A stretch of DNA of 64,000 nt from Bacteroidales bacterium (GCA_045606385.1 JAZURX010000021.1:6677-70676); one strand, 5' to 3'. Positions 28,390 to 42,534 are shown, counted from the stretch's first letter. Numbers and translations: made by a program. Notes: generated from the sequence alone by a model not told the origin.

Positions 28390-29856
28390 ATGAGTAAAAT
28401 CTTGAGTTATATATTTGCGTTATCATTGTTACTGCCCACATTGTCGTGTAGTGATTGGTTCGATGTGCCATCGGACAATGAAAATATACCCGATTATAAA
28501 TATTTTGGAGACGAAAGTGCGTTTTACAACGCATTGGTAGGGGTATATACGCAGTTACGTGATGCCGATTTGTATGGTGAAAATCTTACGCTTGGTATGC
28601 TCGAGTATATGGGACAGAATTTAGTGCCAACCGATGCCACATCGCAGAGTATGAGTAAATTTTGCTATGATGATGCGGCAGTTGGAGAGAAAATCGTCAC
28701 AGTGATGCGGGAGATGTATCGCAGTATAGCAGCTTGCAATCGTATCATAGCCGAGATAGAACGTACCGATGTGGTATTTTATAATGTCGGACAGAAGGAG
28801 ATAATCGCCGGTGAATTATATGCTTTAAGAGGTGCCTTACATTTTGATTTACTACGTCTTTTTCACCCGAGTTACACATGCGATGCAACATTTGAAGGTA
28901 TATCGTATGAAACTGATTTTGCGAAGGCTACGGATAAACCGTTGACGACAGAGGTACTTATCGATAGTATAGTGAGTGATATAACGAGAGGGGCCGATTT
29001 ATTGTATCAACACGATCCTGTGCTCTCAGGTAAAAACAGTTATATAGCATTGCCGGGCGAAATTGATAGTCGTACACGTACATTTTTCTTGAATTATTAT
29101 GCGGCAACCGCGTTGCTTGCGCGGGTATATCTATATAAGGGCGATTATGTCAATGCTTATTCCTATGCCGAGGAAACATTCAATCATTTGCGTAAACTGC
29201 CGGTAAATGCTCAAATTTTCTACTATGTATCACCGGGAAAATATATAAGCGATTTTTGCTTTTCGCGGGAGCATATATGGGGAATATCATCACTGCCCAA
29301 TGGATTTACCGCATTGTCTGATTCGTTGTTTGCAACGATAGGAGTGAAAGTACGCAGTGATTTATCGGTAATATATCCCGATGTGAACGATACTCGTTTC
29401 AGAGAGTGGTTTACTCTTTGCGACGATGGTACGTATACGTTGCAACACAAGTTTGGAGCGAGTACATTGCTTACCGACTATGTGACCAACTCCGGAGGTA
29501 CTGCCACAGATCTTCCGGCACGAATCCCTATGATAAAATTGGGAGAGGTCGCTCTTATAGCGGCAGAGTCGCTCAATGAGCAGAATCTGCCTGATGAGGC
29601 TGCAGAATGGCTAATAGAGATGCAGGAATCGAAACGAAATTCGATAGTAAGTACGTTGAAGGCGGAAGGAAAAATTTCGGTAGAAAATATAAGAATGGTT
29701 ATTGCCGACGAATATAGACGAGAGTTTTGGGGAGAAGGACAACTATTCTATTTTTATAAAAGAAAAGGTTTGTCGCCCATACTGTCGAGTTCGGGTCATG
29801 AGATAATTATGACCGAAAGCGAATATACATTGCCAATACCCTCGGATATAAAATAA
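28390..29856 (+). CDS. SusD/RagB-family outer-membrane lipoprotein
   Basis: 488 aa with lipobox LLLPTLSC. N-terminal pattern SDWFDV...AFYNALVGVYTQLR and C-terminal EFWGEGQLFYFYKR are typical of SusD-like proteins. Starts 1 nt after the upstream stop. Confidence 0.88.
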   Translation: MSKILSYIFALSLLLPTLSCSDWFDVPSDNENIPDYKYFGDESAFYNALVGVYTQLRDADLYGENLTLGMLEYMGQNLVPTDATSQSMSKFCYDDAAVGEKIVTVMREMYRSIAACNRIIAEIERTDVVFYNVGQKEIIAGELYALRGALHFDLLRLFHPSYTCDATFEGISYETDFAKATDKPLTTEVLIDSIVSDITRGADLLYQHDPVLSGKNSYIALPGEIDSRTRTFFLNYYAATALLARVYLYKGDYVNAYSYAEETFNHLRKLPVNAQIFYYVSPGKYISDFCFSREHIWGISSLPNGFTALSDSLFATIGVKVRSDLSVIYPDVNDTRFREWFTLCDDGTYTLQHKFGASTLLTDYVTNSGGTATDLPARIPMIKLGEVALIAAESLNEQNLPDEAAEWLIEMQESKRNSIVSTLKAEGKISVENIRMVIADEYRREFWGEGQLFYFYKRKGLSPILSSSGHEIIMTESEYTLPIPSDIK

Positions 29857-29866: not shown

Positions 29867-32800
29867 ATGAATATACGGATACTATATATATTGTTGTCGT
29901 TTTTGATGGGAGGTATATTCTTTCCGACCGAGAATATCAGTGCGCAAAAATATATTTCGATGCATATCGATCGTAAGCCGTTGGGCGAGGTTCTGATTGC
30001 TGTGCGCAACTTGTCGGGGTATAATCTCTATGTATCGCCGACGGTAGATGTAGAAAAAGTGGTTTCGGTCATGTTGTCGCATACCGATGTGATGACACTT
30101 CTGCAATCGTTGGATCGAACATTGTCGTATAAGATTGTAGATAATACAATAATTGTAACTCCAAAGAAAGAGCACTTATTACCATCGAAGATATACGGAG
30201 TAGTGGTCGATGAAAATCGAATACCTGTCGTAGGGGTAGTGGTGCAGTGTGGTAAGAAGGCTACTGTTACCGATGCCGAAGGCCGATTTGAAATTACACG
30301 TGACGCTGGCGACAGGACATTGACAATATCATTTATCGGGTATCGTAAGGAAAATGTTGTGATAGGCAAGAAAAATTTCTTTGCCATACAGCTTGTTGCC
30401 GATGTAAACGAACTCGAAGATGTGATAGTGACCGGCTATGCACCGAAGGCTAAGAACAGCTTTACCGGAACAGCAGTGCAGGTAAAGGGCGAAGAATTGC
30501 GTATGATAAACAACAGCAGTTTCTTTGATGCATTGAAGGTGTTTGACCCGTCATTTCAGACGGTCGATACGCGCGGTATGTTTGGCTCGGACCCCAACCA
30601 TGTACCTTCGCAAATAGAAATACGTGGTCAAAATAGTTTCCCGGATATATCGGAAAGCAGTCTCAAAACCGAAACCAGTCTGCCGGTATTTATTCTCGAT
30701 GGATTCGAGGTAAATGTAGAGAAAATATATGACCTCGACATGAATCGTATACAGAGTGTAACGATACTTAAAGACGCGTCGGCATCGGCAATTTATGGTT
30801 CGCGAGCTGCCAATGGCGTGGTGGTGATAGAGAGTAAAAGTCCCGAGGCGGGGAAATTGCAAGTGAGTTATTCTCTCATAGCCGGTATGCAGATACCCGA
30901 CCTTACATCGTACAATCTGATGAATGCCTCGGAAGTACTTGAATTTCAGCAGTCTGCAGGAGTGTTTGATGCGTATGACGTTGGTCAGGACCCCGGGACT
31001 CGTCTCAATTCGTATAATGTAATAAAGAAAGAGATTATGAGTGGAACAGACACGTATTGGCTGTCGAAGCCGTTGCGTGTGGGATTCCAGCATAAACACT
31101 CTCTAATTATCGATGGTAGCGTAAATAACGACACAAAAGAAAAGGAAAGTGGTAGTGTACGTTATTCGGTAAATTTGGCTTTCGGGCAAAACAATGGAGT
31201 GATGAAAGGGTCTGATCGTACAACCTATGAAGCAGGAACAAAACTTATATATAATAGCAAGAAACTATATGTGACCAACGATTTACAATTTGGTATGGTC
31301 AATAGCAGTGAGTCGCCATACGGCTCGTTTTCAAATTATACGCAGGCATTACCCTATCATAGAGAGAAAGATGAGAATGGGGATTATTATCGATACTTGT
31401 CGTTGGCGAATGTCGCTCCTAAAGATATGATTCTGGGTATATTGGCGCAACAACGCTCTCCGATGTATGAAGCCAAATATTTAAACTCGTTCTCAACCAA
31501 AGAGAATTACAACATCAGTAATCGTACGGCTATCAACTGGGAAGTGTTTTCGGATTTGCGGATACGTGCCAATTTTGCTGTCAATTATGATGTGAATCGT
31601 ACCGATGCTTTTATATCACCGCTGAGTTATAATTACACCAACACCAACGATAATTCCTCTACTTCGCCCGGAGTGCTTTACAGTAGAGGTAAATATACAT
31701 TAAATAACAGCAATTCATTGGGCTATGATGGTAATATAGTTGTGTCATATTCTCACTCGTTTGGCGCGCATGATTTGCAGGCCATATTGGGTGGAGAGGT
31801 GAGTCAGGACGATTATGATAGTGATAGTTACAGCCTGACCGGATTTTTGGGCGATGCACACGACTATCTTTCATACGGGATACAATACGAATTATACGGT
31901 CGTCCGTCGGGAAGTGAGAACCTTGTCCGTACAGCCGGAGCGTTTACCAATATCAACTATTCTTATGGTAATAGGTATCTTGTGGACGTTACAGGACGAA
32001 TCGACGGGTCGTCGGTGTATGGAAAAAATCAGCAGACAGCGCCTTTCTGGTCGGTGGGTATCAGGTGGAATGTGCATAATGAAAAGTTCCTCAAGGGTAA
32101 TGATGCCGTACAGAAGTTGGCATTGCGAGCCAATATAGGAACGACCGGTAATCAGAATTATACCAAAAGCCAGGCTACCAGTTTGTACACTTTCCTTACA
32201 TCGGTGTATGGCGGTTACTTTGGTGCATTGATTACCACACTCGGAAATCCCGATTTGAAGGGGCAGGTTACTTTCAATCGTAATATCGGTATCGAAACGA
32301 CGATGTTCAAGAATAAACTTAATTTCGATTTCAACTACTATTATAATACCACAGAAGGTAATCTTACCGATATATCTATAGCGCCTTCTATCGGTTTCGA
32401 TTCGTTCAAAACCAATATGGGAAATCTTACCAATCAGGGGGCTGAGTTCAGTATCAGTTATGTTCCTATACGTACAAGAAATACGATGCTCAATTTTACC
32501 TTGAACGGTGCGCACAATAGCAATAAGATTACAAAAATATCGGACACATTGCGTAAATACAATGAGCAGATAGGTGCCGAGGCCGAATCGGGAGCGGCAA
32601 ACGTATTCTTATTTAAGGAGGGTGAGTCGATGAATACTATCTATGCTGTACGTAGTTTGGGAATAGATCCCGGTACGGGAAAAGAGGTATTTCTTACCAA
32701 AGATGGTCATAAGACTTATACATGGAATTCGGCCGATCAAGTACCTGTGGGTGTAAATGAACCTATTTTACAGGGCTATATAGGTGCTAATTTCAGACAT

Positions 32801-33211
32801 AAAGCGTGGGAATTGGGTGCTACGTTCAATTATTCATTTGGTGCAGACAAGTACAATTATACCTTACATGAAAAGATAGAAAATGTCGATTATATGGTAA
32901 ACAATGATCGACGTGCGCTTACCGAGCGCTGGAAGCAGCCCGGTGATATAGCCCGGTATAAGGCTGTAAACGATAACAGTGTGACGCGCTCAACCTCTCG
33001 ATTTGTGCAACGTGAACGATTACTGAGCCTTACTTCTGTGCGTGTAAGTTATACTCTGCCCAAAGAAATTTTGAAAGGGAAGAGTCTTTCGATGTTGAAG
33101 TTGGCTTTGACTTGTAACGAGATATTCTATTGTTCGACGATAAAGCAAGAACGAGGGTTGGCTTATCCGTTTGCACGTTCGGTCAATTTCTCGGCGTATA
33201 TAAACTTCTAA
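29867..33211 (+). CDS. SusC/RagA-family TonB-dependent receptor with N-terminal STN (FecA-type signalling) domain
   Basis: 1114 aa. STN-like segment KYISMHIDRKPLGEVLIAVRNLSGYNLYV...IVDNTIIVTPK, then a carboxypeptidase-regulatory-like domain (GVVVDENRIPVVGVVV), a plug (ILKDASASAIYGSRAANGVVVIE) and a barrel ending SAYINF. Confidence 0.92.
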   Translation: MNIRILYILLSFLMGGIFFPTENISAQKYISMHIDRKPLGEVLIAVRNLSGYNLYVSPTVDVEKVVSVMLSHTDVMTLLQSLDRTLSYKIVDNTIIVTPKKEHLLPSKIYGVVVDENRIPVVGVVVQCGKKATVTDAEGRFEITRDAGDRTLTISFIGYRKENVVIGKKNFFAIQLVADVNELEDVIVTGYAPKAKNSFTGTAVQVKGEELRMINNSSFFDALKVFDPSFQTVDTRGMFGSDPNHVPSQIEIRGQNSFPDISESSLKTETSLPVFILDGFEVNVEKIYDLDMNRIQSVTILKDASASAIYGSRAANGVVVIESKSPEAGKLQVSYSLIAGMQIPDLTSYNLMNASEVLEFQQSAGVFDAYDVGQDPGTRLNSYNVIKKEIMSGTDTYWLSKPLRVGFQHKHSLIIDGSVNNDTKEKESGSVRYSVNLAFGQNNGVMKGSDRTTYEAGTKLIYNSKKLYVTNDLQFGMVNSSESPYGSFSNYTQALPYHREKDENGDYYRYLSLANVAPKDMILGILAQQRSPMYEAKYLNSFSTKENYNISNRTAINWEVFSDLRIRANFAVNYDVNRTDAFISPLSYNYTNTNDNSSTSPGVLYSRGKYTLNNSNSLGYDGNIVVSYSHSFGAHDLQAILGGEVSQDDYDSDSYSLTGFLGDAHDYLSYGIQYELYGRPSGSENLVRTAGAFTNINYSYGNRYLVDVTGRIDGSSVYGKNQQTAPFWSVGIRWNVHNEKFLKGNDAVQKLALRANIGTTGNQNYTKSQATSLYTFLTSVYGGYFGALITTLGNPDLKGQVTFNRNIGIETTMFKNKLNFDFNYYYNTTEGNLTDISIAPSIGFDSFKTNMGNLTNQGAEFSISYVPIRTRNTMLNFTLNGAHNSNKITKISDTLRKYNEQIGAEAESGAANVFLFKEGESMNTIYAVRSLGIDPGTGKEVFLTKDGHKTYTWNSADQVPVGVNEPILQGYIGANFRHKAWELGATFNYSFGADKYNYTLHEKIENVDYMVNNDRRALTERWKQPGDIARYKAVNDNSVTRSTSRFVQRERLLSLTSVRVSYTLPKEILKGKSLSMLKLALTCNEIFYCSTIKQERGLAYPFARSVNFSAYINF

Positions 33212-33214: not shown

Positions 33215-34651
33215 ATGAAATCGATAAAATATATATACTATATCTTGCCGGTCATTACGACGGCTTGTTCGTGGCTCGATGTGGGAACAAAATCGGAGGT
33301 CGACGCAGATGAGATGTTCCTTACGACAGAAGGATATTATACCGCACTTACGGGAGTATATGTGAATATGGGAAATGCTGCGTTGTATGGCGGATATATT
33401 CCATTGTCGGCCATAGAATCTCTTACACAACAATATATATTACCGAGCGACGATACCGATCGCAGCAAATGGGGGCAGTATGATTATACTACGCCCGGAG
33501 CCAAGTCCTATATCGATGAGGTGTGGGGTGAAATGTATAATACCATAGTGAATTGCAACTTGTTACTCGAAAATCTGAGAAAAGAGGATTGTCCGGAGTT
33601 TGAGGCAGGTGTGTGGGAAGTACTTACCGGAGAGGCGATAGGCCTGCGTGCCTATATGTTTTTTGACTTGTTGCGTATATATAATGAGTCTTACCTTGTA
33701 AATCCTCAATGCGATAATGTGCCATTGAAGAAAGATTTTGGATTCAATCTTGGTGAGCAGATTACAACAGAGAAGGCCATGGAGCTTCTTATGGAAGATT
33801 TGGAATATGCTCGCGAACTATTGAAAGACAATGACCCTATTTCGACGAATAAAATATATGAGGACAAGTATCTTTCTTATGATCGTTCGCAACGAATGAA
33901 TTATTATGCCGTAACAGCGCTTATGGCGCGCATGAAGATGTATCGAGGAGATTATGCCTCGGCATACGATTATGCTTGTGAGGTAATAGAGTCGACCAAG
34001 TTCAAATTTATCGAAACCGATAAAATAATAGAGACCGATATGTATGGTAAGGAACTGAAAGTCGATAGAATATTTATGCCTGAAATGATTTTTGCGTTGG
34101 CCAATGACGATATATTATCTACGTCGCGCTCGTCATACGAAAGCTTGAACGGCGATTTTATAAAGAGCGATAATTGTTATGATGCCGATGATGTGCGTCG
34201 TAATTGGCTCTACACCAATCCCAGTGCAAAAAACAAAATCAATCTTATACGTTATCAACGATCGACGCTTGCCGAAGATGCTTATAAGTATCATGTGTCG
34301 GCAACTCCTATGTTGAAGTTGGGCGAAATGTATCTGATTCTTGCGGAATCGGTGTTGAAAGATGCGTCGATAGGTGGTGTTGCGCCCGAGGAGAGTCTCA
34401 ACGTACTCAAAGGTCATCGTAACGCCGGTCAACTTGCATCGGGTATTGATGCAAAGACCATAGATGCCCATATTACTCGCGAATATATTTGCGAATTTAA
34501 GGGCGAGGGTCAACTATTTTTTTACTATAAGCGACGCAATGAACAGGCAGTCGATGATGGTCATTACACAGGGAATACCATCAAGATGAGAACAGCAGAT
34601 TATACGTGGCCGTTGCCTGAATATGAGCAGGATTTTGGTTATGGCAATTAA
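33215..34651 (+). CDS. SusD/RagB-family outer-membrane lipoprotein (paralog of 28390-29856)
   Basis: 478 aa with lipobox VITTAC. SusD-like N-terminus (EGYYTALTGVYVNMG) and C-terminus (EFKGEGQLFFYYKR). Confidence 0.88.
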   Translation: MKSIKYIYYILPVITTACSWLDVGTKSEVDADEMFLTTEGYYTALTGVYVNMGNAALYGGYIPLSAIESLTQQYILPSDDTDRSKWGQYDYTTPGAKSYIDEVWGEMYNTIVNCNLLLENLRKEDCPEFEAGVWEVLTGEAIGLRAYMFFDLLRIYNESYLVNPQCDNVPLKKDFGFNLGEQITTEKAMELLMEDLEYARELLKDNDPISTNKIYEDKYLSYDRSQRMNYYAVTALMARMKMYRGDYASAYDYACEVIESTKFKFIETDKIIETDMYGKELKVDRIFMPEMIFALANDDILSTSRSSYESLNGDFIKSDNCYDADDVRRNWLYTNPSAKNKINLIRYQRSTLAEDAYKYHVSATPMLKLGEMYLILAESVLKDASIGGVAPEESLNVLKGHRNAGQLASGIDAKTIDAHITREYICEFKGEGQLFFYYKRRNEQAVDDGHYTGNTIKMRTADYTWPLPEYEQDFGYGN

Positions 34652-34661: not shown

Positions 34662-35375
34662 ATGAAACGATATATATACATATTACTACTCTTGTGCGTA
34701 GTTTTTGCATGTAAAGAGGATAAACTGGATCTCTATGATGCGTCGCGCCCCTCTTTGAATATTGCCAAGGGAAATTTCAATCCCGGTGAATATTCCGAGT
34801 CGTACTCTTTCAATGCCTATTTCTTAGGAGTCGGTGCAGGAGATTACATATTGCAGATACCGGTGCGGCTGTCGGGTGAAATAGATTATGAACGCGATCG
34901 TCGATATAATGTAGAGGCCGATGTCGATTCGAGCCGTAATGCAGTGAACGGAGTACATTACACCCTCGACAACGAGCAATTGTTTCGTAAGGGAATGTAT
35001 CAAGATACCATAGCGGTGATTATACATGTCGGAGCCCTCAATACTACCGACGATTATCGTATATGGCTCAAATTAATACCGAATGAAACTTTTGATGTCG
35101 GTATTCCCGACTATCAGTTTGTCTCTATTGATTTTATGAAAAATCTCAATACTGCCCCCCCCTTTTGGGAAAATAACAGTAAATTGGCAAAATTGCCATA
35201 TCACCCCAAAAAGTGTGAGGTTTTTCTCGAGATAAGCGGTATAACCGATCCCGAGTGGGTAGACCCGGGAGGTACCATACAACTCGAATATTGGATAAAT
35301 CTCTGTACGCAATATTTTATTGATAATGAGATTTATGATGAAGAAACAGGAAATCGTATCTATTTTGACCAATAG
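34662..35375 (+). CDS. Surface lipoprotein, probably DUF4843 family (family label from memory of typical SusCD accessory genes)
   Basis: 237 aa from MKRYIYILLLLCVVFAC (lipobox), directly after SusD. The track ORF start at 34623 would overlap the SusD gene. Confidence 0.6.
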   Translation: MKRYIYILLLLCVVFACKEDKLDLYDASRPSLNIAKGNFNPGEYSESYSFNAYFLGVGAGDYILQIPVRLSGEIDYERDRRYNVEADVDSSRNAVNGVHYTLDNEQLFRKGMYQDTIAVIIHVGALNTTDDYRIWLKLIPNETFDVGIPDYQFVSIDFMKNLNTAPPFWENNSKLAKLPYHPKKCEVFLEISGITDPEWVDPGGTIQLEYWINLCTQYFIDNEIYDEETGNRIYFDQ

Positions 35376-35379: not shown

Positions 35380-36885
35380 ATGGATATAAAAAAACATATA
35401 TATATATTTTGCATGCTATTGTTGTTGAGTAATAGTTCTTGTCTGCAAAATAAAGATAAATCGGCAACATGGGATCCCGATCATGTAGAGAAAGTCTCGG
35501 GTATATCCGAAGATGGATATATACTTTACTTGGGAGATCGTTTCATATGTACGCCCGAAATAACATTCTCTGACAGTACGACAGCCGATGATTATACATA
35601 TCGTTGGATTATCGGCAACAGTGAAGTAATAGGTTGTGATAAGAGATTGGATTGGGAGATAGAATTACCCGTAGGATATAAACTCAACACTGCTATACCC
35701 GGAGTATTTGTAGCGCGTAATAAAATAAATGAACTGGAATTTCGTCAACCATTTACCATAACTATTCTTACAGGTTATACACCTACGTATATTGCTGTGT
35801 ATGAAACATCTGAAGGAAATATAGAATGGACATCGTTGCAAGGAGAACCTCGAGAGTTTACCCGATGGTTTGGCGGAATGGTGGATCGTGTAAATCATGA
35901 TACAATTCCGGGCCCGTTTGTCGGGGCTTTTAATTCTACCGACGAACTTGCTATTTTTACAGCTCATGCTTCGGATTATGGTTATACGATAAGCATGGTC
36001 GACTCGGAGGAGGGTTCTGATTTTGTGGCCAACGTTGGAGAAATCGTAGGTGAAATAAGCGAACGTGTCTATCATGGTACTGCCGAAAATCCTCGCATCA
36101 GCAATGTAGTGTATGGAGTAGGTGCCAGTAAATACCTTATAAGCAATGGTAATTTGCATGTGTTTAACGGCCTTGAAAAACGATTGCCGATGTATAATGA
36201 GGATACTTATGTGAAAAGTAGAAATGTATTGCAGGCGGTCTCTTCAAAACAATTTATGCGTTTCAAAAAGGCTACATTTGTACGTCATACCGATAATCGT
36301 ATAGGTTGTTTCCATGTATATAATGATAAGATGGAATGGGTTACCGATGGAGGAGAGGTATTAAAACTTGATTCGTTATATGGCGCATTCTCGCAATCTA
36401 CAGGAGAAGGTTCGAACAAGCCTTATGATATATATCTTGTTTCCAAGTCGGGCAATGCGTATGAAATGTTGCGATTCCATGTAAATTATGTAAAAACTGC
36501 AGTCCAGCCGATAATTCTTGAAACTCGTTTTGACTTGCCGTCGGATATTGTAGAGAATACCCGTTATTGGTTTGGCTCGTTTGGAGAGGAGTATGCGTTC
36601 TATGTAACACGTAATGCGATATATCGGTTCGACTATCACGATATGACTGCATTTACACCGGCCGAAAAGCCTTTGGTACAATTCTCTGACGATGTGGTAA
36701 TAACAGAAATTTTCCCTTTGCAAGGAAGTACGTTCCGTGACGAAGACGATTGCACGGTAGTTTATCTCTATAATGAGCAGAAGAAAACTACCTCTCTATA
36801 TATTTATGATACTGTTACAGGTCGTAAATTGGCCGAATATCCCGATATATTGCCGGGTAAAGGGCTCTATTTCACCAAACGATAA
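35380..36885 (+). CDS. Surface lipoprotein of unknown function (position and size match the PKD-like family lipoproteins that follow DUF4843 genes)
   Basis: 501 aa from MDIKKHIYIFCMLLLLSNSSC (lipobox). No catalytic motif recognised. Confidence 0.55.
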   Translation: MDIKKHIYIFCMLLLLSNSSCLQNKDKSATWDPDHVEKVSGISEDGYILYLGDRFICTPEITFSDSTTADDYTYRWIIGNSEVIGCDKRLDWEIELPVGYKLNTAIPGVFVARNKINELEFRQPFTITILTGYTPTYIAVYETSEGNIEWTSLQGEPREFTRWFGGMVDRVNHDTIPGPFVGAFNSTDELAIFTAHASDYGYTISMVDSEEGSDFVANVGEIVGEISERVYHGTAENPRISNVVYGVGASKYLISNGNLHVFNGLEKRLPMYNEDTYVKSRNVLQAVSSKQFMRFKKATFVRHTDNRIGCFHVYNDKMEWVTDGGEVLKLDSLYGAFSQSTGEGSNKPYDIYLVSKSGNAYEMLRFHVNYVKTAVQPIILETRFDLPSDIVENTRYWFGSFGEEYAFYVTRNAIYRFDYHDMTAFTPAEKPLVQFSDDVVITEIFPLQGSTFRDEDDCTVVYLYNEQKKTTSLYIYDTVTGRKLAEYPDILPGKGLYFTKR

Positions 36886-36904: not shown

Positions 36905-37798
36905 ATGAACGAACCCCGTCCTGTTATCGAATGTCGAAATCTTACCCATTATTATGGTAAGAAATTGGTGTACGAAAATCTGAACATTGTTGTTCCCGAA
37001 GGGCATATTATGGGCTTGCTGGGTAAGAACGGAGCAGGAAAAAGTACGACTATTAATATATTGAACGGTTTTCTTGAACCTCGTTCGGGCGAGTGCCTTA
37101 TCTATGGAGAAAATTCGCAACATTTGTCACCCGAAACCAAAAAACGTATAGGATACCTTATCGAGGGGCATATCCAATACAGTTTTATGAATGTGCATCA
37201 GATAGAAAAGTTTTATTCAGGATTCTATGAAAATTGGAAACGTGATGCCTATTGGGAACTTATCAATCGACTGAAAATAACTCCAAAACAACATATATCT
37301 ACCATGTCGTGCGGGCAACGTGCGCAAGTGGCTCTCGGTCTTATCTTGGCTCAAGACCCAGATTTGTTGATACTCGATGATTTCTCGCTCGGTCTCGACC
37401 CCGGTTATCGTAGGTTGTTTGTTGATTACATGCGGGAATATTGTAAAGCCGAAAATAAAACGGTATTCCTTACATCGCACATTATACAAGATATGGAGCG
37501 TCTCATCGATGATATTCTTATTATGGATTATAATCGTATGTTGGTACAAGGACCTACGCGTGATTTTGTGGAACGGTTCAAAGGCTTTTCTTTTGAACTC
37601 GACCGTGCCGATGTGGTGTTTGACGATCCGGAGGCTGCCAATGTAGAGCATATCAATAATCATTATGAGTTTTATACTTATGCCGAGGAGAGTGATGTGA
37701 AGGCTATTCTCGGCCGTAAGGGGTTGAGATATAATAATTTCGAGCGTATGTCGCTCACCCTTGAAGATGCCTTTATCGGTCTCACCGGAAAATATTAG
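36905..37798 (+). CDS. ABC transporter ATP-binding protein with non-canonical signature and Walker B motifs
   Basis: 297 aa from MNEPRPVIECRNLTHYYG. Walker A GKNGAGKST, signature MSCGQ (canonical LSGGQ), Walker B LLILDD followed by F (canonical D-E), H-loop TSH, and a C-terminal extension of about 80 aa. The track start at 36773 is rejected. Confidence 0.9.
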   Translation: MNEPRPVIECRNLTHYYGKKLVYENLNIVVPEGHIMGLLGKNGAGKSTTINILNGFLEPRSGECLIYGENSQHLSPETKKRIGYLIEGHIQYSFMNVHQIEKFYSGFYENWKRDAYWELINRLKITPKQHISTMSCGQRAQVALGLILAQDPDLLILDDFSLGLDPGYRRLFVDYMREYCKAENKTVFLTSHIIQDMERLIDDILIMDYNRMLVQGPTRDFVERFKGFSFELDRADVVFDDPEAANVEHINNHYEFYTYAEESDVKAILGRKGLRYNNFERMSLTLEDAFIGLTGKY

Positions 37799-37803
37799 GA
37801 GAT

Positions 37804-38487
37804 ATGAAGCCGATTTTGCATCTTTTCTATAAAGAGTGGATAAAGACACGTTTAGGATTTATCTGTTCGTTGCTTGCCAGTATAGGAGTCGTGTTTTATA
37901 TCTTTTTGGTGGTAGAAAACAAAATGACTTTGGTAGGGGCCAAAAATTATACGATGAATGTGTTGTATAATAACCCTCCGATTATATACTATTCGTTATT
38001 GCGATATATACCCATACTTATAGCCGTATGTGTGGGCGTATTGCAATATATGCCCGAGGTAGCACAAAAACGTATACGTCTTACCCTGCATTTGCCGGTC
38101 GATAACAATCGATTGTTTCTCTGTATGGTAGCATTTGGCGTGACTCTTATAACGATAGCTTATATCGTGATTTTTACGTTTTTCTGCTGGAAAAATCACT
38201 CTTTGTTCCCAACAGAGGTGACCTATCCTGTGGAAATGACTGCAATGGCATGGTTTCTTGCCGGGTATATTGTATATAATTTTATTGCCATGGTGGCCAT
38301 GGAGCCCAATCGCATACGTCAAGTATTTTATGCGTTGATCGGGCTTATATTGTCGACGCTCTATTTTCATGAGATTCCTTATCATGGAGCCTATGCCGAC
38401 TCGTTGCCGGTATTGACTGTATTGGCGGTAGTTTCATTCCCGCTTATGTTGTTCAGCGGTTTCCGCTTCAATAAAGGAGAACGTTAA
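37804..38487 (+). CDS. Six-helix ABC-2-type permease-like membrane protein, copy 1
   Basis: 227 aa with about 6 hydrophobic helices. The post-TM2 motif PEVAQKRIRLTLHLPV resembles the E-x-GT-x-L-P-V loop of ABC-2 permeases. Starts 5 nt after the ATPase stop. Confidence 0.7.
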   Translation: MKPILHLFYKEWIKTRLGFICSLLASIGVVFYIFLVVENKMTLVGAKNYTMNVLYNNPPIIYYSLLRYIPILIAVCVGVLQYMPEVAQKRIRLTLHLPVDNNRLFLCMVAFGVTLITIAYIVIFTFFCWKNHSLFPTEVTYPVEMTAMAWFLAGYIVYNFIAMVAMEPNRIRQVFYALIGLILSTLYFHEIPYHGAYADSLPVLTVLAVVSFPLMLFSGFRFNKGER

Positions 38488-38488
38488 T

Positions 38489-39724
38489 ATGGTACATAAA
38501 ATTCTACATATTTTAGCCGTTTTGTTTGCATCTCTTGCCATGTCGTTGATAATTTCGTATGGTCGCGGTCAAGTATATACACATGGCGACTATACCGATG
38601 TGGTTTATTCGGAGTTGTTACACGATTTTATTGTATCTTCGTATGAATATAACGGAGATACTGAAAATCCGCAGCTGTATCGGGTATATAGAGATACGCA
38701 AGGTGCGATAATAGACGAGTCGCTTATCGACTCATTATGCCCGCTCAATAATGCGTCGCAGTTGGCTTTTGAGAATCGTTTCCCCGAGAGCGTGTGTGGA
38801 GTGCCTGTCACAGCTCGTGAGGCGTCCGATGCCGTATATCATCATCGAATCGTAGGCGACGGTCTCGATTATGGCTTGTATGACTTGATAGATGCACATA
38901 GTTATCTATCGCAGCAATTTAGCACAAAAGACCTTTTCCGTTTTACCGGCAAGGGGATAGAATTTATTTTGCCGGAGACAAACAGTGTTGATATTGAAAA
39001 GACAAAATTATTCAATGATGCATTGTGCAATGCGGGTTTTCGCCTCGGAAAAACCGGAATATGGAGTCCTTCGAATCGTACCGATTTGGAACGATATGGA
39101 TTTTTTGTAGCCGATGCCGATGGCCGGTTGTTCCGATTGTCGATGAAAGAGGGCACGCCGATAGTTGAGGCCTTGCCACAGCCTGCCGGCAAATCCATAA
39201 AGTTTATAAGTTTTGTCGACAGAAACGAGTATCTTGCCTTTGTGGTAACGACCGATGGAGCATCTTATGTGCTTTCGCGTGAAGACTATAACTATCGACA
39301 GTTACCGTTACCCTCGCTTATCGATTTCAGTGTGGATATTGATGCCAATCTGTTGTATAATACGTTTGAGTTGACAACATCGGATTTGGTGTTATATATT
39401 GTTCTCGATAAGAACTGGTATCCTGTGGCTCAGTATGAGCGTGAGCGCAAATTTATGCGCCATGTCGATATTAAACCCTATTATATGCCCATATTTGTAT
39501 ATGATACGGCACAAAACGGGGTAGAAATAGAGTTTTCATCGGTGTATAAATTTATTTGGCTCAATCTTGTTCTGGCTGCATTGACATTTTATCTGCGTCG
39601 TCGCAAGGGATACACCCGTTATGTGCAGATTGCCGATACATTGATAGTGATATTGTTGGGGTTGGTGGGTATGATAGGCGCATTTGCCATACCTTATCGT
39701 CGTATTGATAAAAAAATGAAGTAA
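38489..39724 (+). CDS. Membrane-anchored protein of unknown function, copy 1 (I believe DUF4857-like)
   Basis: 411 aa with an N-terminal hydrophobic helix, a soluble region of about 330 aa, and a C-terminal pair of helices separated by RRRKGY. Starts 1 nt after the upstream stop. Confidence 0.6.
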   Translation: MVHKILHILAVLFASLAMSLIISYGRGQVYTHGDYTDVVYSELLHDFIVSSYEYNGDTENPQLYRVYRDTQGAIIDESLIDSLCPLNNASQLAFENRFPESVCGVPVTAREASDAVYHHRIVGDGLDYGLYDLIDAHSYLSQQFSTKDLFRFTGKGIEFILPETNSVDIEKTKLFNDALCNAGFRLGKTGIWSPSNRTDLERYGFFVADADGRLFRLSMKEGTPIVEALPQPAGKSIKFISFVDRNEYLAFVVTTDGASYVLSREDYNYRQLPLPSLIDFSVDIDANLLYNTFELTTSDLVLYIVLDKNWYPVAQYERERKFMRHVDIKPYYMPIFVYDTAQNGVEIEFSSVYKFIWLNLVLAALTFYLRRRKGYTRYVQIADTLIVILLGLVGMIGAFAIPYRRIDKKMK

Positions 39725-39726
39725 AT

Positions 39727-40413
39727 ATGATACCTATACATATAAAACATCTTATATATAAAGAGTGGATAAAAACACGGTGGTATGCGGTGTTGGGAGT
39801 GATATTGACGTTTGCACTCTCGATCGTGATGTGTATGAAGACTGTTCTGACGTTTCATCACATGGATAGTGCCATGTACTATTCGATGTTGATGTCGGGA
39901 AATCTCTCACTTTTCACTATGCTCAAATTTAAGTATTGGGGATTGATAGTGGCGTTGCTTATAGGCCTGCCGCAATTCCTTCCTGAAACAGCCAGTAAAC
40001 GCATACGTCTGACTTTGCATCTACCGGTGAGTAGTGCGACAGTTGTATATTCTATGGTCATATATGGCTTGTTGTTGTGCTGTGCTGTGTTGCTCCCGGC
40101 CCTACTGGTAATTGTAATCACATTAGTCGCTATGTTCCCGAGTGAGGTTATTGTTCCTACTTTGCAGACAATGTTACCATGGCTGCTGGGCGGTATTACC
40201 GGTTATTTCTTTATTGCCATGATTGCATTCGAGCCTATAGCAAAATTCCGTGTATTGTATATCTTGGCAGCCTATTTTGTATTGCGATTCTTTTATATAT
40301 CGTATGGTGTGGGAAATGCAGTGACTGTATATCCGTTATTATTTATCATTACGATTGTGGCAAGTTTATCGGTACTTTATACTTCTCATCGTTTTAATAA
40401 AGGAGAGCTCTGA
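39727..40413 (+). CDS. Six-helix ABC-2-type permease-like membrane protein, copy 2 (paralog of 37804-38487)
   Basis: 228 aa sharing YKEWIKTR, KRIRLTLHLPV and RFNKGE with copy 1. Confidence 0.7.
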   Translation: MIPIHIKHLIYKEWIKTRWYAVLGVILTFALSIVMCMKTVLTFHHMDSAMYYSMLMSGNLSLFTMLKFKYWGLIVALLIGLPQFLPETASKRIRLTLHLPVSSATVVYSMVIYGLLLCCAVLLPALLVIVITLVAMFPSEVIVPTLQTMLPWLLGGITGYFFIAMIAFEPIAKFRVLYILAAYFVLRFFYISYGVGNAVTVYPLLFIITIVASLSVLYTSHRFNKGEL

Positions 40414-40415
40414 TT

Positions 40416-41633
40416 ATGGTAAAGATTATACGAATTCTTCTTATACTGATTACAATTTTTACGATGGCTTTTTATATGCCGTCGACCTATCGTAAAGCAG
40501 TAGAGCGTCGTCCGATGAAGACGATGATATATTTCAGTGAAGTATCAAAAGATTTTGTGATAGCTCGTGAAACCGGTGATTCGATAGGTGGGCAGGCCAC
40601 CATGCGATATTATACGCCGGGAGGCAAGTTGCTCACAGAAAATGAATATATGAGTCTGCTCCCCTTTAACAACCGACGTAAATTGAAGTTGATGGGAGTC
40701 ATGCCCGACTCGTTACATGGTGTAGCGCTTACGACCGATGTGTTGAAAAATGTGAAACGCAGTATGTTGCTTGCGGAGCGTTCGTTCCAATATGAGTTGA
40801 ATCCACTGTTTGAGTCGCAGCCCGATCGCCTTGGAGTATCATTACCTGACGATCTTTTCAGAATGAGTAATACCGGTATAGAGTTTATAGATTGTGCTAC
40901 GGGTGATATACTCGAAGAAAAATCGGAACTTTTTTCCGAGGCATTGTATGCCACCGGCTTTGTTGCTCCGGCACGCGATGTTTATGGTATTCCTTCGGTT
41001 TTGAAACGTTGGGACAGCGGGTATTTCATTGTCGATGCACAAGGGACTCTTTATCATCTGATGATGGTGAAAGGCACTCCATTCTGTCGTAGAATAGAGA
41101 CCGATATCGATGTAAAAAATATGAAATGTCATACCGATGAAGAGATCTTCGCTCATATTTTCGACACGGACAATCGAATGTATGTTTTGACTACCGATTA
41201 TAAGGTGTATCCGCTTGAAACCGATATACTCAACGGCCGATTCTTTATGACATCGAACTGTTTCTATCGTACTTATAAAACGAGTGATGCCGATAGTAGT
41301 ATTATGTATGTATATGATGCTAACTTTGCGCCTGTAGGTCGTTATGCCGAGGTGGTAGACCATTATAGCAATACTCGTGAAGCCGCGTGGGAGCAAAGGG
41401 TATTCCCGTTTTCGGTAATGAAGACTCCGGGATATGCCCATTATATTCCTATTTTCAATCCCATAAAAATGTTTTGGCTTGCCAATGTGATATGTGCCTT
41501 TTTGTGGTTAATCATGAAATTACATCGTCGTCGTAATCTTGCACGTCCCGAGAATATTGCCGACTTGGCTATCATATTGCTTACCGGAGTGTATGGATTT
41601 CTTGCAGTGCTTATATTCCCTAATCGTAAATAA
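40416..41633 (+). CDS. Membrane-anchored protein of unknown function, copy 2 (paralog of 38489-39724)
   Basis: 405 aa sharing LxPxNN, DLFR-x4-GIEFI, G(Y/F)F(I/V)xDAxGxL...GTP and the C-terminal RRR-flanked hydrophobic hairpin with copy 1. Confidence 0.6.
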   Translation: MVKIIRILLILITIFTMAFYMPSTYRKAVERRPMKTMIYFSEVSKDFVIARETGDSIGGQATMRYYTPGGKLLTENEYMSLLPFNNRRKLKLMGVMPDSLHGVALTTDVLKNVKRSMLLAERSFQYELNPLFESQPDRLGVSLPDDLFRMSNTGIEFIDCATGDILEEKSELFSEALYATGFVAPARDVYGIPSVLKRWDSGYFIVDAQGTLYHLMMVKGTPFCRRIETDIDVKNMKCHTDEEIFAHIFDTDNRMYVLTTDYKVYPLETDILNGRFFMTSNCFYRTYKTSDADSSIMYVYDANFAPVGRYAEVVDHYSNTREAAWEQRVFPFSVMKTPGYAHYIPIFNPIKMFWLANVICAFLWLIMKLHRRRNLARPENIADLAIILLTGVYGFLAVLIFPNRK

Positions 41634-41655
41634 TCACATATAAAAAATTAATCAA

Positions 41656-42534
41656 ATGGAAACAAATGTACAACAAAAACAAAAACGTTCGTTTATCGGT
41701 ATTGCGGCTTTTTTGATTGTCCTTTTTACTATGCCTTTGGGACATGCCGCTATGATAGCGATGGAGAATTTTCTTTCAGGAACGGCTCTTACTATGGGTG
41801 CCTTTTTGCTTGGCCTTATTGGTGCCGCATGGACCATCTGGGGCTTCTATATGAAGAGCGAAAACGCAGCGACCTTTGCCGGTCTTATGGGTGGTTTGCT
41901 CGTATGGACGGGTTGGATAGAGTTTACCTATGTATATTATGCACATCGCTATGAGGTTGCTCCTCTGACCGATGCCGGCGGTGAGATTGTGACCAAACCC
42001 GAATATCTGATATTGATGTCGTCGGTAGGCTTTTTGGCTATCGTTATGATGTTCTATACTTTCAGCGCCCGCACCAAATGTGTCTTTTTCTGTTGGTTGC
42101 AGAAGCAGTTGCGTATTGATCGTCATCAAGACAATATGCAGGTGGTGACACGCAACAATTCTATGACTACATTTATGGAAATAACCGTGTTGTTGTGGGT
42201 AAGTTACCTTGTGCTCATGTTTGCCTATGACGATCATCTGCTGGGCGATCGTCACCCTGTGACAGCTTTCATTGCATTTGGCAGTCTGGCTTGGTCGGCA
42301 TATCTATTTGTGAAACTTATGAAGATACGTAAAATAGGTTATGCGGTGCGTTATGCAATTCCTACTGTAATTATTTTCTGGACATTTGTGGAGATATTGG
42401 GCCGCTGGGATATGTTCAGTGAAATATGGACAGAGCCAGCAAAATACAAAATGGAGATGATAACCTTGTTTGTTGTTTTTGTCCTTTTTTCTATATATCT
42501 GTTTGTGCATAAAAAACAAAATAATAAAAAATAG
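41656..42534 (+). CDS. Polytopic (about 8 helices) integral membrane protein of unknown function
   Basis: 292 aa, last gene of the array. No motif recognised. Confidence 0.6.
   Translation: METNVQQKQKRSFIGIAAFLIVLFTMPLGHAAMIAMENFLSGTALTMGAFLLGLIGAAWTIWGFYMKSENAATFAGLMGGLLVWTGWIEFTYVYYAHRYEVAPLTDAGGEIVTKPEYLILMSSVGFLAIVMMFYTFSARTKCVFFCWLQKQLRIDRHQDNMQVVTRNNSMTTFMEITVLLWVSYLVLMFAYDDHLLGDRHPVTAFIAFGSLAWSAYLFVKLMKIRKIGYAVRYAIPTVIIFWTFVEILGRWDMFSEIWTEPAKYKMEMITLFVVFVLFSIYLFVHKKQNNKK

What the first reader, a model, noticed from the sequence alone, without database searches (positions are those of the whole stretch)
36905..42534. Orphan ABC-type machine: one ATPase, then a tandemly duplicated [6-TM permease-like + ~400-aa membrane-anchored unknown protein] pair, then an 8-TM protein
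Seen in the sequence: a 297-aa ABC ATPase is followed by five genes with gaps of only 1-5 nt between the first four junctions. In order they are a 227-aa six-helix protein, a 411-aa protein, a second 228-aa six-helix protein, a second 405-aa protein and, 22 nt later, a 292-aa polytopic protein. The two small proteins are clear paralogs, sharing YKEWIKTR, KRIRLTLHLPV and RFNKGE. The two large proteins are also paralogs, sharing LxPxNN, DLFR-x4-GIEFI, G(Y/F)F(I/V)xDAxGxL..GTP and an RRR-flanked C-terminal hydrophobic hairpin. Each large protein has one N-terminal hydrophobic helix and a soluble region of about 330 aa in which I recognise no catalytic or binding motif, then two C-terminal helices. 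Established knowledge: ABC-2 exporters use 6-TM permeases. Mechanotransmitting systems (LolCDE, MacB, FtsEX, GldAFG) couple an ATPase to large extracytoplasmic domains, and LolC/LolE are a heterodimeric paralog pair served by one ATPase. Inference: one ATPase dimer may drive a heterodimeric permease pair, each permease with its own accessory subunit, doing envelope work rather than simple solute export. From memory the large protein belongs to a family catalogued only as a domain of unknown function (DUF4857). I know of no experimental function for this module.
Basis: partly seen in the sequence, partly recalled or inferred. Interest (0 to 1): 0.8.

Follow-up and report, generated by a model that had tools for sequence, protein, structure and literature searches.

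The report
ABC machine partnered with SusCD importers
This is a conserved, uncharacterised ATP-driven inner-membrane module (ATPase, ABC-2-like permease, membrane-anchored periplasmic DUF4857 protein, the last two present here as two ancient copies) that in Bacteroidota almost always lies next to a TonB-dependent outer-membrane importer, so it is probably the missing inner-membrane step of those uptake systems.

Summary
Window 36905-42534 encodes an ABC ATPase, two [6-TM protein + DUF4857 protein] pairs and a polytopic protein, with the stated sizes, gaps and motifs.

It is not an orphan. It forms the tail of a co-oriented array: SusC-SusD-SusC-SusD-DUF4843-PKD-like-ATPase-B1-C1-B2-C2.

Across 78 related loci the ATPase-B-C triad is nearly invariant (ATPase missing only in L056). 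In 44 of 47 loci with enough flank it sits beside a TonB-dependent transporter, in three architectures.

- B has no Pfam match, but its model folds like type V (ABC-2) permeases; NosY is the best match.
- C has an N-terminal anchor helix and a beta-rich periplasmic domain. Natural B-C fusions exist.
- The B/C duplication is ancient and keeps its order.
- The 8-TM gene is an unrelated, widely conserved neighbour.
- The ATPase subfamily invariably has Glu for the Q-loop Gln and Asp for the catalytic Glu.

No paper I could search assigns a function. The B. thetaiotaomicron homologues (BT3625-27) are induced 37-65-fold by iron starvation.

Best reading: a periplasm-facing inner-membrane partner of TonB-dependent uptake. 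Import of the cargo is most likely (about 0.4). A NosDFY-like mechanotransducer is the close rival.

The parts
25869..28388 (+). SusC-like TonB-dependent transporter, short form (839 aa). It lacks the N-terminal CarboxypepD_reg extension and is a paralogue of the next SusC.
   Evidence: ORF; 23% identity to SusC_b, E 2e-34, alignment starting at the plug. Plug match only sub-threshold, E 0.026.
28390..29856 (+). SusD-like lipoprotein a
   Evidence: 30% identity to SusD_b, E 8e-52.
29867..33211 (+). SusC-like TonB-dependent transporter b (1114 aa) with CarboxypepD_reg and Plug domains and a degenerate STN-like N-terminus
   Evidence: Pfam CarbopepD_reg_2 and Plug. (SusC/RagA structures, E 1e-50). 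(STN sub-threshold, E 0.011).
33215..34651 (+). SusD-like lipoprotein b
   Evidence: Conserved upstream of the module in all PKD-type loci.
34662..35375 (+). DUF4843 lipoprotein. The likely start is MKRYIY, with lipobox ..VFAC; the ORF itself opens at 34623.
   Evidence: PF16132, 7e-12. Conserved in 20 loci.
35380..36885 (+). PKD-like family lipoprotein. The likely start is MDIKKH; the ORF itself opens at 35320.
   Evidence: PF16407 at 1.7e-08, below the Pfam cut-off. Conserved immediately upstream of the ATPase in 20 loci.
36905..37798 (+). ABC ATPase of the DrrA/ABCA (type V) clade with non-canonical catalytic motifs: Q-loop E87, Walker B D159, signature MSCGQ
   Evidence: ABC_tran, 1.6e-22. 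(PmtA, DrrA and GldA best, all far below cut-off). (motifs invariant in 75/75). (residue correspondence against the ABCA3/7 NBDs).
37804..38487 (+). B1: 6-TM type V (ABC-2-like) permease, copy 1
   Evidence: (family motifs). (copy-1 clade). The fold is inferred from the B2 model.
38489..39724 (+). C1: DUF4857 protein, copy 1 (N-terminal anchor, periplasmic beta-rich domain, C-terminal TM hairpin)
   Evidence: PF16149, 1.2e-52..
39727..40413 (+). B2: 6-TM type V (ABC-2-like) permease, copy 2
   Evidence: AF2 pLDDT 88, pTM 0.86. (NosY TM 0.62, probability 1.0)..
40416..41633 (+). C2: DUF4857 protein, copy 2
   Evidence: 2.8e-72. (AF2 pLDDT 84, pTM 0.72). (only loose beta-propeller-like matches, TM <= 0.26).
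41656..42534 (+). About 8-TM protein of a widespread, unnamed Bacteroidota family. It is an adjacent gene, not a core part of the module.
   Evidence: more than 1,400 homologues, and other genomic contexts in Pedobacter and Parabacteroides; present only in the closest loci L002-L010. No Pfam, NCBIfam or PDB match.

Best explanation
The unit is ATPase (A) + 6-TM type V permease (B) + DUF4857 protein (C). It is the inner-membrane, periplasm-facing partner of a TonB-dependent outer-membrane uptake system.

Shown:
- B has the ABC-2/type V fold. Its invariant motifs are YKEWIKTR, PE...KRIKLTLHLP, EP and RF.KGE.
- C is anchored by an N-terminal helix and exposes a beta-rich domain of about 310 aa to the periplasm.
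- B and C occur as a single fused polypeptide in nature.
- A-B-C is co-inherited with SusC-type or classical TonB-dependent transporters, and it is the only candidate inner-membrane transporter in those loci.

Inferred:
- B's invariant motifs lie on the cytoplasmic face, where the ATPase docks. This placement comes from the six-helix model plus the usual N-in topology; no topology predictor was run.
- Cargo released into the periplasm by the SusCD complex is captured by the periplasmic domain of C. This would parallel the beta-propeller ligand binders BtuG and XusB at the cell surface.
- ATP binding and hydrolysis by an A dimer is transmitted through a B dimer to C.
- The cargo is then passed through the B dimer into the cytoplasm. 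That would make this a binding-protein-dependent importer built on a type V scaffold.
- In this window the transporter is probably heteromeric, A2:B1:C1:B2:C2. This may match the two paralogous SusCD pairs upstream.
- The Q-loop Glu and Walker-B Asp suggest a slow or differently catalysed ATPase cycle.

Confidence that this is a transporter-linked, periplasm-facing ABC module is about 0.85. Confidence that its job is import of the cargo is about 0.4.
For: - Triad conserved with tight or overlapping junctions: window gaps of 5, 1, 2 and 2 nt; L001 gaps of 4 and 1 nt; overlap in L084; 78 loci.
- A TBDT/SusC gene lies within 6.6 kb in 44 of 47 loci with at least 6 kb of flank. There are three architectures: SusCD+DUF4843+PKD, TBDT+DUF4876(+DUF6850), and ECF sigma/FecR+SusC(STN)+SusD.
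- B clades follow locus type, so the module co-diversifies with the outer-membrane system.
- The loci contain no other polytopic inner-membrane protein, except a PepSY_TM-like protein of about 190 aa in 10 loci.
- The minimal loci are only sigma/anti-sigma + SusC + SusD + A-B-C.
- B has the type V fold. The ATPase is closest to ABCA NBDs.
- B-C fusions P0217 and P0265 exist. P0265 lies in a genuine operon directly after the ATPase.
- C topology and beta-rich domain.
- The B. thetaiotaomicron homologues BT3625-27 are co-induced 37-65-fold with their TBDT locus BT3625-33 (37-128-fold across the locus) under iron depletion (PMC10434189). DUF4876 is a predicted lid of that TBDT (bioRxiv 10.1101/2023.03.17.533168).
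Against: - From my own knowledge, every characterised bacterial type V/ABC-2 system is an exporter, extruder or mechanotransducer. No bacterial importer with this fold is known.
- The conserved residues of B appear to be almost all on the cytoplasmic face, with no conserved polar path through the membrane.
- Iron-linked contexts (PepSY_TM-like reductase relatives, FeoB, DUF4198) fit release of the metal in the periplasm, which would need no chelate importer.
- The ATPase has Asp for the catalytic Glu. In other ABC proteins this marks slow, degenerate sites (PMC7756269).
- The only fitness data I found cover the neighbouring TBDT/lid pair BT3633/BT3632, not BT3625-27; that pair showed no clear phenotype in 519 experiments.
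- 3 of 47 loci have no nearby TBDT.
- The substrate is unknown.
Confidence: 0.4

Rival explanations
1. A NosDFY-like mechanotransducer. Nothing crosses the inner membrane. The ATP cycle of A is transmitted through B to the periplasmic domain of C. C then changes shape to strip, unload or hand over cargo in the periplasm. Examples would be pulling a metal or ligand off a carrier or off the transporter's periplasmic face, and passing it to FeoB or a reductase.
For: - The best structural match of B is NosY in NosDFY(L) complexes. From my own knowledge, in that system a periplasmic beta-rich protein docks on the ABC-2 permease and ATP drives copper hand-over.
- B's conservation appears to be concentrated on the ATPase-facing side, with no conserved membrane path.
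- Metal-related neighbours: PepSY_TM-like, FeoB and DUF4198, plus iron-starvation induction.
- The catalytic Glu-to-Asp change is compatible with a slow switch.
- C is tethered or fused to B.
Against: - C is not NosD, and no nos genes are present.
- The SusCD+DUF4843+PKD loci and the minimal sigma/FecR/SusCD loci contain no other inner-membrane transporter that could take the cargo onward.
- No client protein is conserved across the three locus types.
Confidence: 0.28
2. An exporter or recycler coupled to uptake. The module expels something generated by the uptake pathway from the periplasm or inner membrane. Candidates are an emptied carrier or chelator, or a toxic by-product. The analogy is PvdRT-OpmQ recycling apo-pyoverdine in Pseudomonas.
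For: - The type V fold and DrrA/ABCA-clade ATPase are typical of exporters.
- Type-2 loci carry reductase-like PepSY_TM proteins and a putative outer-membrane protein, DUF6850.
- Iron regulation.
Against: - No outer-membrane exit duct or adaptor is conserved across locus types; DUF6850 is absent from the PKD-type and SusCD-only loci.
- No biosynthetic genes for a secreted carrier occur in any locus.
- A large tethered periplasmic domain is not needed for simple efflux.
Confidence: 0.17
3. An envelope-biogenesis helper. It would act as a Lol-like extractor or chaperone that delivers the locus's own surface lipoproteins (SusD, DUF4843, PKD-like, DUF4876) or helps assemble the outer-membrane complex.
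For: Every locus type encodes at least one surface lipoprotein next to the transporter. Mechanotransmitting ABC systems do such work elsewhere (LolCDE; my own knowledge).
Against: - B has no periplasmic domain and is not FtsX/MacB-like.
- From my own knowledge, the vast majority of SusCD loci function without such a module.
- Minimal loci contain only SusD as a lipoprotein.
Confidence: 0.05
4. A generic ABC-2 efflux or immunity pump (bacitracin, lantibiotic or drug type), or a defence-system ATPase, that lies next to the SusCD genes only by coincidence.
For: The ATPase gives weak matches to PmtA, DrrA and lantibiotic-protection ATPases and to generic ABC-like ATPases in PADLOC.
Against: - All of those matches are far below the family cut-offs. 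B and C have no PADLOC or NCBIfam hit.
- Linkage to TBDTs holds in 44 of 47 loci, across three architectures and several orders of Bacteroidota.
- B clades track locus type.
Confidence: 0.05

Closest known systems
NosDFY(L) copper/sulfur assembly machinery for nitrous oxide reductase (PDB 7znq, 7o0z, 7qba, 7o17)
   Same: An ABC-2/type V 6-TM permease (NosY is the best structural match of B, TM 0.62), a DrrA-clade ATPase, and a large beta-rich periplasmic partner that works with the permease.
   Different: C is DUF4857, not the NosD beta-helix. C is membrane-anchored, or fused to B, rather than soluble. No nos genes are present. The context is TonB-dependent uptake. The ATPase has Glu/Asp swaps at the Q-loop and catalytic positions.
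GldA/GldF/GldG gliding-associated ABC system of Bacteroidota
   Same: It has the same three-part layout: an ABC-2-type ATPase, a 6-TM permease, and an accessory protein with terminal TM anchors and a large periplasmic domain. It is also restricted to the same phylum.
   Different: There are no HMM matches. GldA scores 118 bits against a cut-off of 402.6, and the GldF and GldG models do not hit B or C. The genomic context differs too, being next to TBDTs.
ABCA-family transporters (ABCA1/3/4/7)
   Same: The closest solved ATPase domains by sequence, a type V membrane fold, and a large exocytoplasmic domain mounted on the permease. ABCA4 shows that this fold can move substrate inward (my own knowledge).
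   Different: They are eukaryotic single-chain proteins with the exocytoplasmic domain inserted between TM1 and TM2. They handle lipid substrates and keep the canonical catalytic Glu in at least one site.
Type VII mechanotransmitters (LolCDE, MacB, FtsEX)
   Same: ATP-driven work done in the periplasm by extracytoplasmic domains. LolC/LolE is a paralogous heterodimer served by one ATPase, like B1C1/B2C2 here.
   Different: Those permeases have 4 TM helices with the periplasmic domain inside the same chain (FtsX/MacB_PCD). B has 6 TM helices, no periplasmic domain and no Pfam match to them.
TonB-receptor-coupled periplasmic/inner-membrane systems of Proteobacteria (FhuBCD, BtuCDF; FpvCDEF and PvdRT-OpmQ)
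   Same: The same place in the pathway: an ABC system encoded next to a TonB-dependent transporter that deals with cargo once it is in the periplasm.
   Different: Those use type I/II importer folds with soluble binding proteins, or a MacB-type tripartite pump. Here the fold is type V, and the putative binding subunit is membrane-tethered and of a new family.

Membership tests
ABC ATPase (PF00005 ABC_tran) | Pfam match above the gathering score; Walker A, signature and H-loop present | tested here: met
   81 bits against a cut-off of 25. GKNGxGK(T/S), MSCGQ and TSH are invariant.
ABC ATPase (PF00005 ABC_tran) | Canonical catalytic Glu after Walker B and canonical Q-loop Gln | tested here: not met
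   LILDDF (Asp) and LIEGH (Glu) in 75/75 module-linked ATPases. A neighbouring ordinary ABC-2 ATPase in Pedobacter keeps Q and DEP.
Type V / ABC-2 permease | Six TM helices with an N-terminal amphipathic helix, and structural similarity to solved type V membrane domains | tested here: met
   (AF2 pLDDT 88). (NosY TM 0.62 with probability 1.0; then ABCG25, ABCG5/8, Wzm, PmtCD).
Type V / ABC-2 permease | Sequence match to a Pfam/NCBIfam ABC2_membrane family | tested here: not met
   No hit. No PDB hit with the family profile. hhalign against a Pfam-certified ABC2_membrane_3 protein gave probability 0.09.
DUF4857 (PF16149) | Pfam match above the gathering score | tested here: met
   C1 179 bits and C2 244 bits, against a cut-off of 25.
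GldAFG gliding ABC system | Equivalog-level matches to GldA, GldF and GldG | tested here: not met
   GldA scores 118 bits against a cut-off of 402.6. B and C have no GldF or GldG hit.
NosDFY | NosY/NosF equivalogs, a NosD beta-helix partner, and a nos gene context | tested here: not met
   The only link is fold-level similarity of B to NosY. There are no NosD/NosY HMM hits and no nos genes in the window.
Type VII mechanotransmitters (LolCDE/MacB/FtsEX) | A 4-TM FtsX-type permease with an internal periplasmic domain | tested here: not met
   no FtsX or MacB_PCD match; six TM helices with short periplasmic loops.
Binding-protein-dependent ABC importer (type I/II) | A BPD_transp_1 or FecCD permease and a periplasmic SBP-fold binding protein | tested here: not met
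   no such domains in B or C. C resembles beta-propellers only loosely, not SBP folds.
Binding-protein-dependent ABC importer (type I/II) | ATP-dependent inward transport of a ligand bound by the periplasmic subunit | not testable with these tools
   This needs a transport assay. The substrate is unknown.
SusCD-type (PUL-like) uptake locus | An adjacent SusC-like TBDT and SusD-like lipoprotein in the same orientation | tested here: met
   No carbohydrate-active enzymes lie in the array, so it is PUL-like rather than a glycan PUL.

The most novel reading that the evidence does not exclude
The ATPase-B-DUF4857 triad is a new class of ABC importer. A type V (ABC-2) permease is fed by a membrane-tethered beta-rich periplasmic receptor and powered by an ATPase that uses a Q-loop Glu / Walker-B Asp pair in both sites. 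It would serve as the dedicated inner-membrane step for TonB-dependent/SusCD uptake of non-glycan cargo (metal chelates, possibly peptides) throughout Bacteroidota. In this window it would be an obligate A2:B1C1:B2C2 heteromer matched to two SusCD pairs.
Probability: 0.35. Interest if true: 0.85.

Novelty: new variant of a known kind. Interest (0 to 1): 0.62.

Why it matters
How cargo brought in by the many non-glycan SusCD and TonB-dependent transporters of Bacteroidota crosses or is processed at the inner membrane is largely unknown. Classical binding-protein ABC importers are scarce in this phylum (my own knowledge).

This module is a strong candidate for that step. It is represented by 718 clusters at 50% identity and by more than 549 loci in species-representative genomes. 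It is tied to three different outer-membrane architectures, and in a model gut bacterium it is strongly induced by iron starvation.

If it imports, it would be the first bacterial importer on the type V fold. If it is a mechanotransducer, it extends the NosDFY principle to nutrient uptake. Either way, the invariant Glu/Asp replacement at two catalytic positions of a presumably homodimeric ATPase is a testable oddity in ABC enzymology. B. thetaiotaomicron BT3625-27 offers a genetically tractable entry point.

Tried and rejected
- Profile searches of the B and C families against all PDB sequences found nothing, even at E 10.
- hhalign of the B profile against a Pfam-certified ABC2_membrane_3 protein gave no signal. 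The ABC-2 assignment therefore rests on predicted fold only.
- Searching genome contigs with the C alignment failed because it has no sufficiently conserved 7-10-column stretch. The B alignment was used instead.
- I tried to test whether the second SusCD pair is conserved upstream. The metagenome scan with SusD_a found no relatives. Only L010 shows SusD_a upstream, so a 'two SusCD pairs for two B-C pairs' correspondence remains untested.
- The window's own C2 protein is not on record in the contig index.
- The DUF4843, PKD-like and 8-TM proteins have no PDB sequence relatives. SusC_b is only distantly related to the BT2264 complex, so the solved BT2261-64 complex is not a close model for this locus.
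- The promoter/terminator scan was uninformative, with counts at shuffle level.
- PADLOC gave only generic ATPase similarity, so a defence system was rejected.
- Literature searches for DUF4857, DUF4843, BT3625-27 and related terms found no functional study. The Flavobacterium heme paper turned out to be unrelated.
- The three loci without a TBDT were inspected. Their neighbours (a TolC-like OEP, a methyltransferase, ThiF, GH20, a C10 peptidase) suggest no alternative theme.

Full report
**1. Observation**

| Gene | Coordinates (+ strand) | Length |
|---|---|---|
| ATPase | 36905-37798 | 297 aa |
| B1 | 37804-38487 | 227 aa |
| C1 | 38489-39724 | 411 aa |
| B2 | 39727-40413 | 228 aa |
| C2 | 40416-41633 | 405 aa |
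| Polytopic protein | 41656-42534 | 292 aa |

The junction gaps are 5, 1, 2, 2 and 22 nt. B1 and B2 are paralogues (34% identity, E 2e-31), as are C1 and C2 (27% identity, E 2e-32). Every quoted motif is present.

Both C proteins match Pfam DUF4857 strongly (1e-52 and 3e-72). Neither B protein matches anything in Pfam or NCBIfam.

The ATPase matches ABC_tran. Its best NCBIfam models are PmtA, DrrA, GldA and NodI, the ABC-2-type ATPases, all far below their cut-offs.

**2. It is not an orphan**

Upstream on the same strand, with gaps of 1-19 nt, lie:

- a short SusC-like gene (25869-28388);
- SusD (28390-29856);
- a full-length SusC (29867-33211; CarboxypepD_reg and Plug domains);
- SusD (33215-34651);
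- a DUF4843 lipoprotein;
- a PKD-like lipoprotein that ends 19 nt before the ATPase.

The two SusC/SusD pairs are paralogues of each other (23% and 30% identity). The finding is therefore the distal half of a co-oriented array of about 16.7 kb that begins after gapA.

**3. What the parts are**

*B.* An AlphaFold2 model of B2, built on a 33-sequence family alignment, is confident (pLDDT 88, pTM 0.86). It shows an N-terminal amphipathic helix running into TM1, five further TM helices and a short helix in the TM2-TM3 loop.

Foldseek against the PDB puts NosY first (TM 0.62, probability 1.0). ABCG25, ABCG5/8, ABCG1, Wzm, PmtCD and ABCH follow, all with the type V (ABC-2) fold.

Sequence methods do not see this relationship. 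B is therefore a very divergent type V permease family without a Pfam model.

Its invariant residues are YKEW.KTR at the N-terminus, Q..PE...KR.KLTLHLP after TM2, EP after TM4 and RF.KGE at the C-terminus. On the six-helix model with the usual N-in topology, these all fall on the cytoplasmic face, where the ATPase docks. That placement is my inference. The periplasmic loops are short and variable.

*C.* The C2 model (pLDDT 84, pTM 0.72) has three regions:

- an N-terminal helix, residues 2-29;
- a mostly beta domain, about residues 36-347;
- two C-terminal helices, 354-370 and 378-400, flanking the Arg-rich loop.

Its only structural neighbours are beta-propellers (HOPS subunits, PorZ, TolB, BamB), at low TM-scores of 0.26 or less. 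I therefore call it beta-rich and propeller-like, without a close known relative.

A subfamily of C in Bacteroides, Prevotella and Parabacteroides loci (about 355 aa) lacks the C-terminal hairpin altogether. The essential features are thus the N-terminal anchor and the periplasmic domain.

*B-C fusions.* Two natural fusion proteins, P0217 (663 aa) and P0265 (649 aa), carry all the B motifs, then a short linker, then a full DUF4857 protein.

P0265 sits immediately after its ATPase in an 8.4-kb contig. P0217 is on a short, low-coverage contig.

The fusions argue for a 1:1 physical B:C unit. They also fix C's first helix as an in-to-out TM segment, which places the beta domain in the periplasm.

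**4. The ATPase is unusual**

In 75 of 75 module-linked ATPases the following hold:

- the Q-loop glutamine is Glu (LIEGH);
- the catalytic glutamate after Walker B is Asp (LILDDF);
- the signature is MSCGQ;
- Walker A, the H-loop and the C-terminal LEDAFIGLTGKY are conserved.

Residue-by-residue alignment to the ABCA3 and ABCA7 NBDs, the best PDB sequence matches, confirms these correspondences. An ordinary ABC-2 ATPase from a Pedobacter locus keeps Q, LSGGQ and DEP.

In other ABC proteins the Glu-to-Asp change marks degenerate, slowly hydrolysing sites of heterodimers (PMC7756269). Here a single ATPase gene would place it in both sites.

**5. Distribution and context**

The DUF4857 family has 718 clusters at 50% identity in a library of 1.84 billion proteins. 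The B motifs find at least 549 loci in species-representative genomes. By record title the listed loci are all Bacteroidota (Bacteroidales, Marinilabiliales, Chitinophagales, Flavobacteriales), apart from one contig labelled Clostridium that is probably mis-binned.

I called ORFs in 78 retrieved loci and classified them with profiles made from the window and from a Draconibacterium locus. ATPase-B-C occurs in that order wherever the contig allows. The one exception is L056, which lacks the ATPase.

Of the 47 loci with at least 6 kb on both sides, 44 have a TonB-dependent transporter within 6.6 kb. A more sensitive TBDT profile confirmed that the remaining three truly lack one.

The loci fall into three architectures:

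| Type | Architecture | Form of the module |
|---|---|---|
| i (window type) | SusC-SusD-DUF4843-PKD-like-A-B-C-B-C | Always doubled. 15 loci plus 3 truncated ones are A-B-C-B-C; 4 (Butyricimonas, Odoribacter sp.) are A-B-C-A-B-C |
| ii | TBDT-DUF4876(x1-2)-(DUF6850)-...-A-B-C | Single in 33 of 33 loci; 10 also carry a PepSY_TM-like protein of about 190 aa just upstream of the ATPase |
| iii | ECF sigma-FecR-SusC(with STN domain)-SusD-A-B-C | Single in Chitinophagaceae and Flavobacteriaceae; doubled in Mariniphaga and Maribellus |

No locus contains another polytopic inner-membrane transporter. A neighbour-joining tree of B shows clades that follow locus type, so the module has co-diversified with its outer-membrane partner.

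**6. The duplication**

In the same tree, copy-1 and copy-2 B proteins of type (i) loci form two sister clades. Each clade contains Butyricimonas, Alistipes, Odoribacter, Coprobacter, Muribaculaceae and the window lineage.

The duplication therefore predates these families, and both copies have been kept in the same order ever since.

Where the ATPase is also doubled, the two copies are close sisters, nearly identical in Mariniphaga/Maribellus. This fits one ATPase species serving both B-C pairs.

Two homodimeric complexes sharing one ATPase remain possible.

**7. The 8-TM protein**

Its family has more than 1,400 members, no Pfam model, and about 57% identity as far away as Pedobacter. In Pedobacter and Parabacteroides it sits in unrelated contexts.

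It follows C2 only in the ten closest loci, and Odoribacter, Alistipes and Butyricimonas loci lack it. I treat it as a neighbour, not a subunit. The same applies to the BspA-type LRR protein after it.

**8. Literature**

Full-text searches found no functional study of DUF4857 or of the B family.

One transcriptome paper reports that B. thetaiotaomicron BT3625 (DUF4857), BT3626 (hypothetical) and BT3627 (ABC ATPase) are induced 37-65-fold under iron depletion. The rest of BT3625-33 (two PepSY_TM proteins, a fimbrillin-like protein, two DUF4876 proteins, the TBDT BT3633) rises up to 128-fold (PMC10434189).

A preprint predicts that DUF4876 is a lid for that TBDT. It reports no clear fitness phenotype for the BT3633/BT3632 pair (10.1101/2023.03.17.533168).

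The P0265 fusion lies beside FeoB and a DUF4198 protein. Locus types (ii) and the fusion locus therefore have an iron or metal flavour. Nothing links the window-type locus to iron specifically.

**9. Mechanism**

*Shown:*

- a type V permease fold;
- a membrane-tethered periplasmic domain;
- B-C fusion;
- near-obligatory and co-diversifying linkage to TonB-dependent transporters;
- absence of any other inner-membrane transporter in the loci.

*Inferred:* the module acts on cargo after the outer-membrane step.

I commit to import as the single most likely job, at about 0.4. In this reading C captures cargo in the periplasm, the ATP cycle is relayed through B, and cargo passes through the B dimer. 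Minimal loci consist only of a regulator pair, SusCD and A-B-C, and an uptake locus needs an inner-membrane step.

The strongest rival, at about 0.28, is a NosDFY-like mechanotransducer that moves nothing across the membrane. Four things favour it: the NosY match, B's conservation apparently confined to the cytoplasmic side, the slow-looking ATPase, and the metal-release context.

An uptake-coupled exporter or recycler has about 0.17. A Lol-like biogenesis helper and a coincidental efflux or immunity pump have about 0.05 each.

**10. Comparison and novelty**

The module works like NosDFY, GldAFG and ABCA-type systems: a type V permease with a large exocytoplasmic domain. In the pathway it occupies the place that FhuBCD, BtuCDF or FpvCDEF occupy.

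It fails the membership tests for GldAFG, NosDFY, type VII mechanotransmitters and type I/II importers. The family exists in databases only as a DUF plus unnamed hypotheticals.

I rate it a new variant of a known kind, namely an ABC type V system with a new accessory subunit, a new genomic partnership and non-canonical catalytic residues. Interest is 0.62.

Noticed in passing
window 36905-37798 (and the ATPases of L001-L079): The module-linked ABC ATPase subfamily invariably (75/75) has Glu for the Q-loop Gln (LIEGH), Asp for the catalytic Glu (LILDDF), and MSCGQ for LSGGQ. As a presumed homodimer it would carry the 'degenerate-site' Asp in both ATP sites.
   Followed up: yes
L066 10698-11756, and about 15 other loci (L046, L048, L050, L052-54, L058, L060-62, L071, L074, L076, L079): A short form of DUF4857 (about 340-357 aa) in Bacteroides, Prevotella and Parabacteroides-type loci lacks the C-terminal two-helix hairpin. 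It keeps only the N-terminal anchor and the periplasmic domain.
   Followed up: partly
window 25869-29856, compared with 29867-34651: There are two tandem paralogous SusC/SusD pairs. The first SusC (839 aa) lacks the N-terminal CarboxypepD_reg extension, and its plug is so divergent that Pfam sees it only at E 0.026. Whether two SusCD pairs correspond to the two B-C pairs could not be tested.
   Followed up: partly
window 29867-30190: SusC_b has an N-terminal extension of about 100 aa with only a sub-threshold STN match (E 0.011), and the window contains no ECF sigma/FecR pair. The SusC genes of type-3 loci have a clear STN domain and an adjacent sigma/anti-sigma pair.
   Followed up: partly
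window 41656-42534: The protein of about 8 TM helices belongs to a very widespread, well conserved Bacteroidota membrane-protein family. It has about 57% identity to Pedobacter and Parabacteroides proteins and more than 1,400 homologues. It has no Pfam, NCBIfam or PDB match, and its function is unknown.
   Followed up: partly
window 42620-43669: A BspA-type leucine-rich-repeat protein (LRR_5, 8e-29) follows the 8-TM gene. It is kept in that position in the nine closest loci (L002-L006, L008-L010 and, by contig end, probably L007).
   Followed up: no
L084 2-5534: The B-DUF4857 fusion protein P0265 is encoded directly after its ATPase and downstream of a FeoB C-terminal fragment, a 103-aa ORF and a DUF4198 protein. 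This is an iron/metal context with no TBDT visible on the 8.4-kb contig.
   Followed up: partly
L026 5172-8937, and L001 1-1507: Some type-2 loci carry BNR/Sortilin/PSII_BNR-like beta-propeller proteins next to the module. In L026 two of them sit just upstream of the ATPase, one with a T9SS C-terminal sorting domain; in L001 one sits at the upstream end of the locus, before the TBDT.
   Followed up: no
protein P0021 (alignment A1): This 413-aa DUF4857 protein aligns like copy 2 in its N-terminal half and like copy 1 in its C-terminal half. It comes from a 2-kb contig, so it is either a recombinant or an assembly chimera.
   Followed up: no
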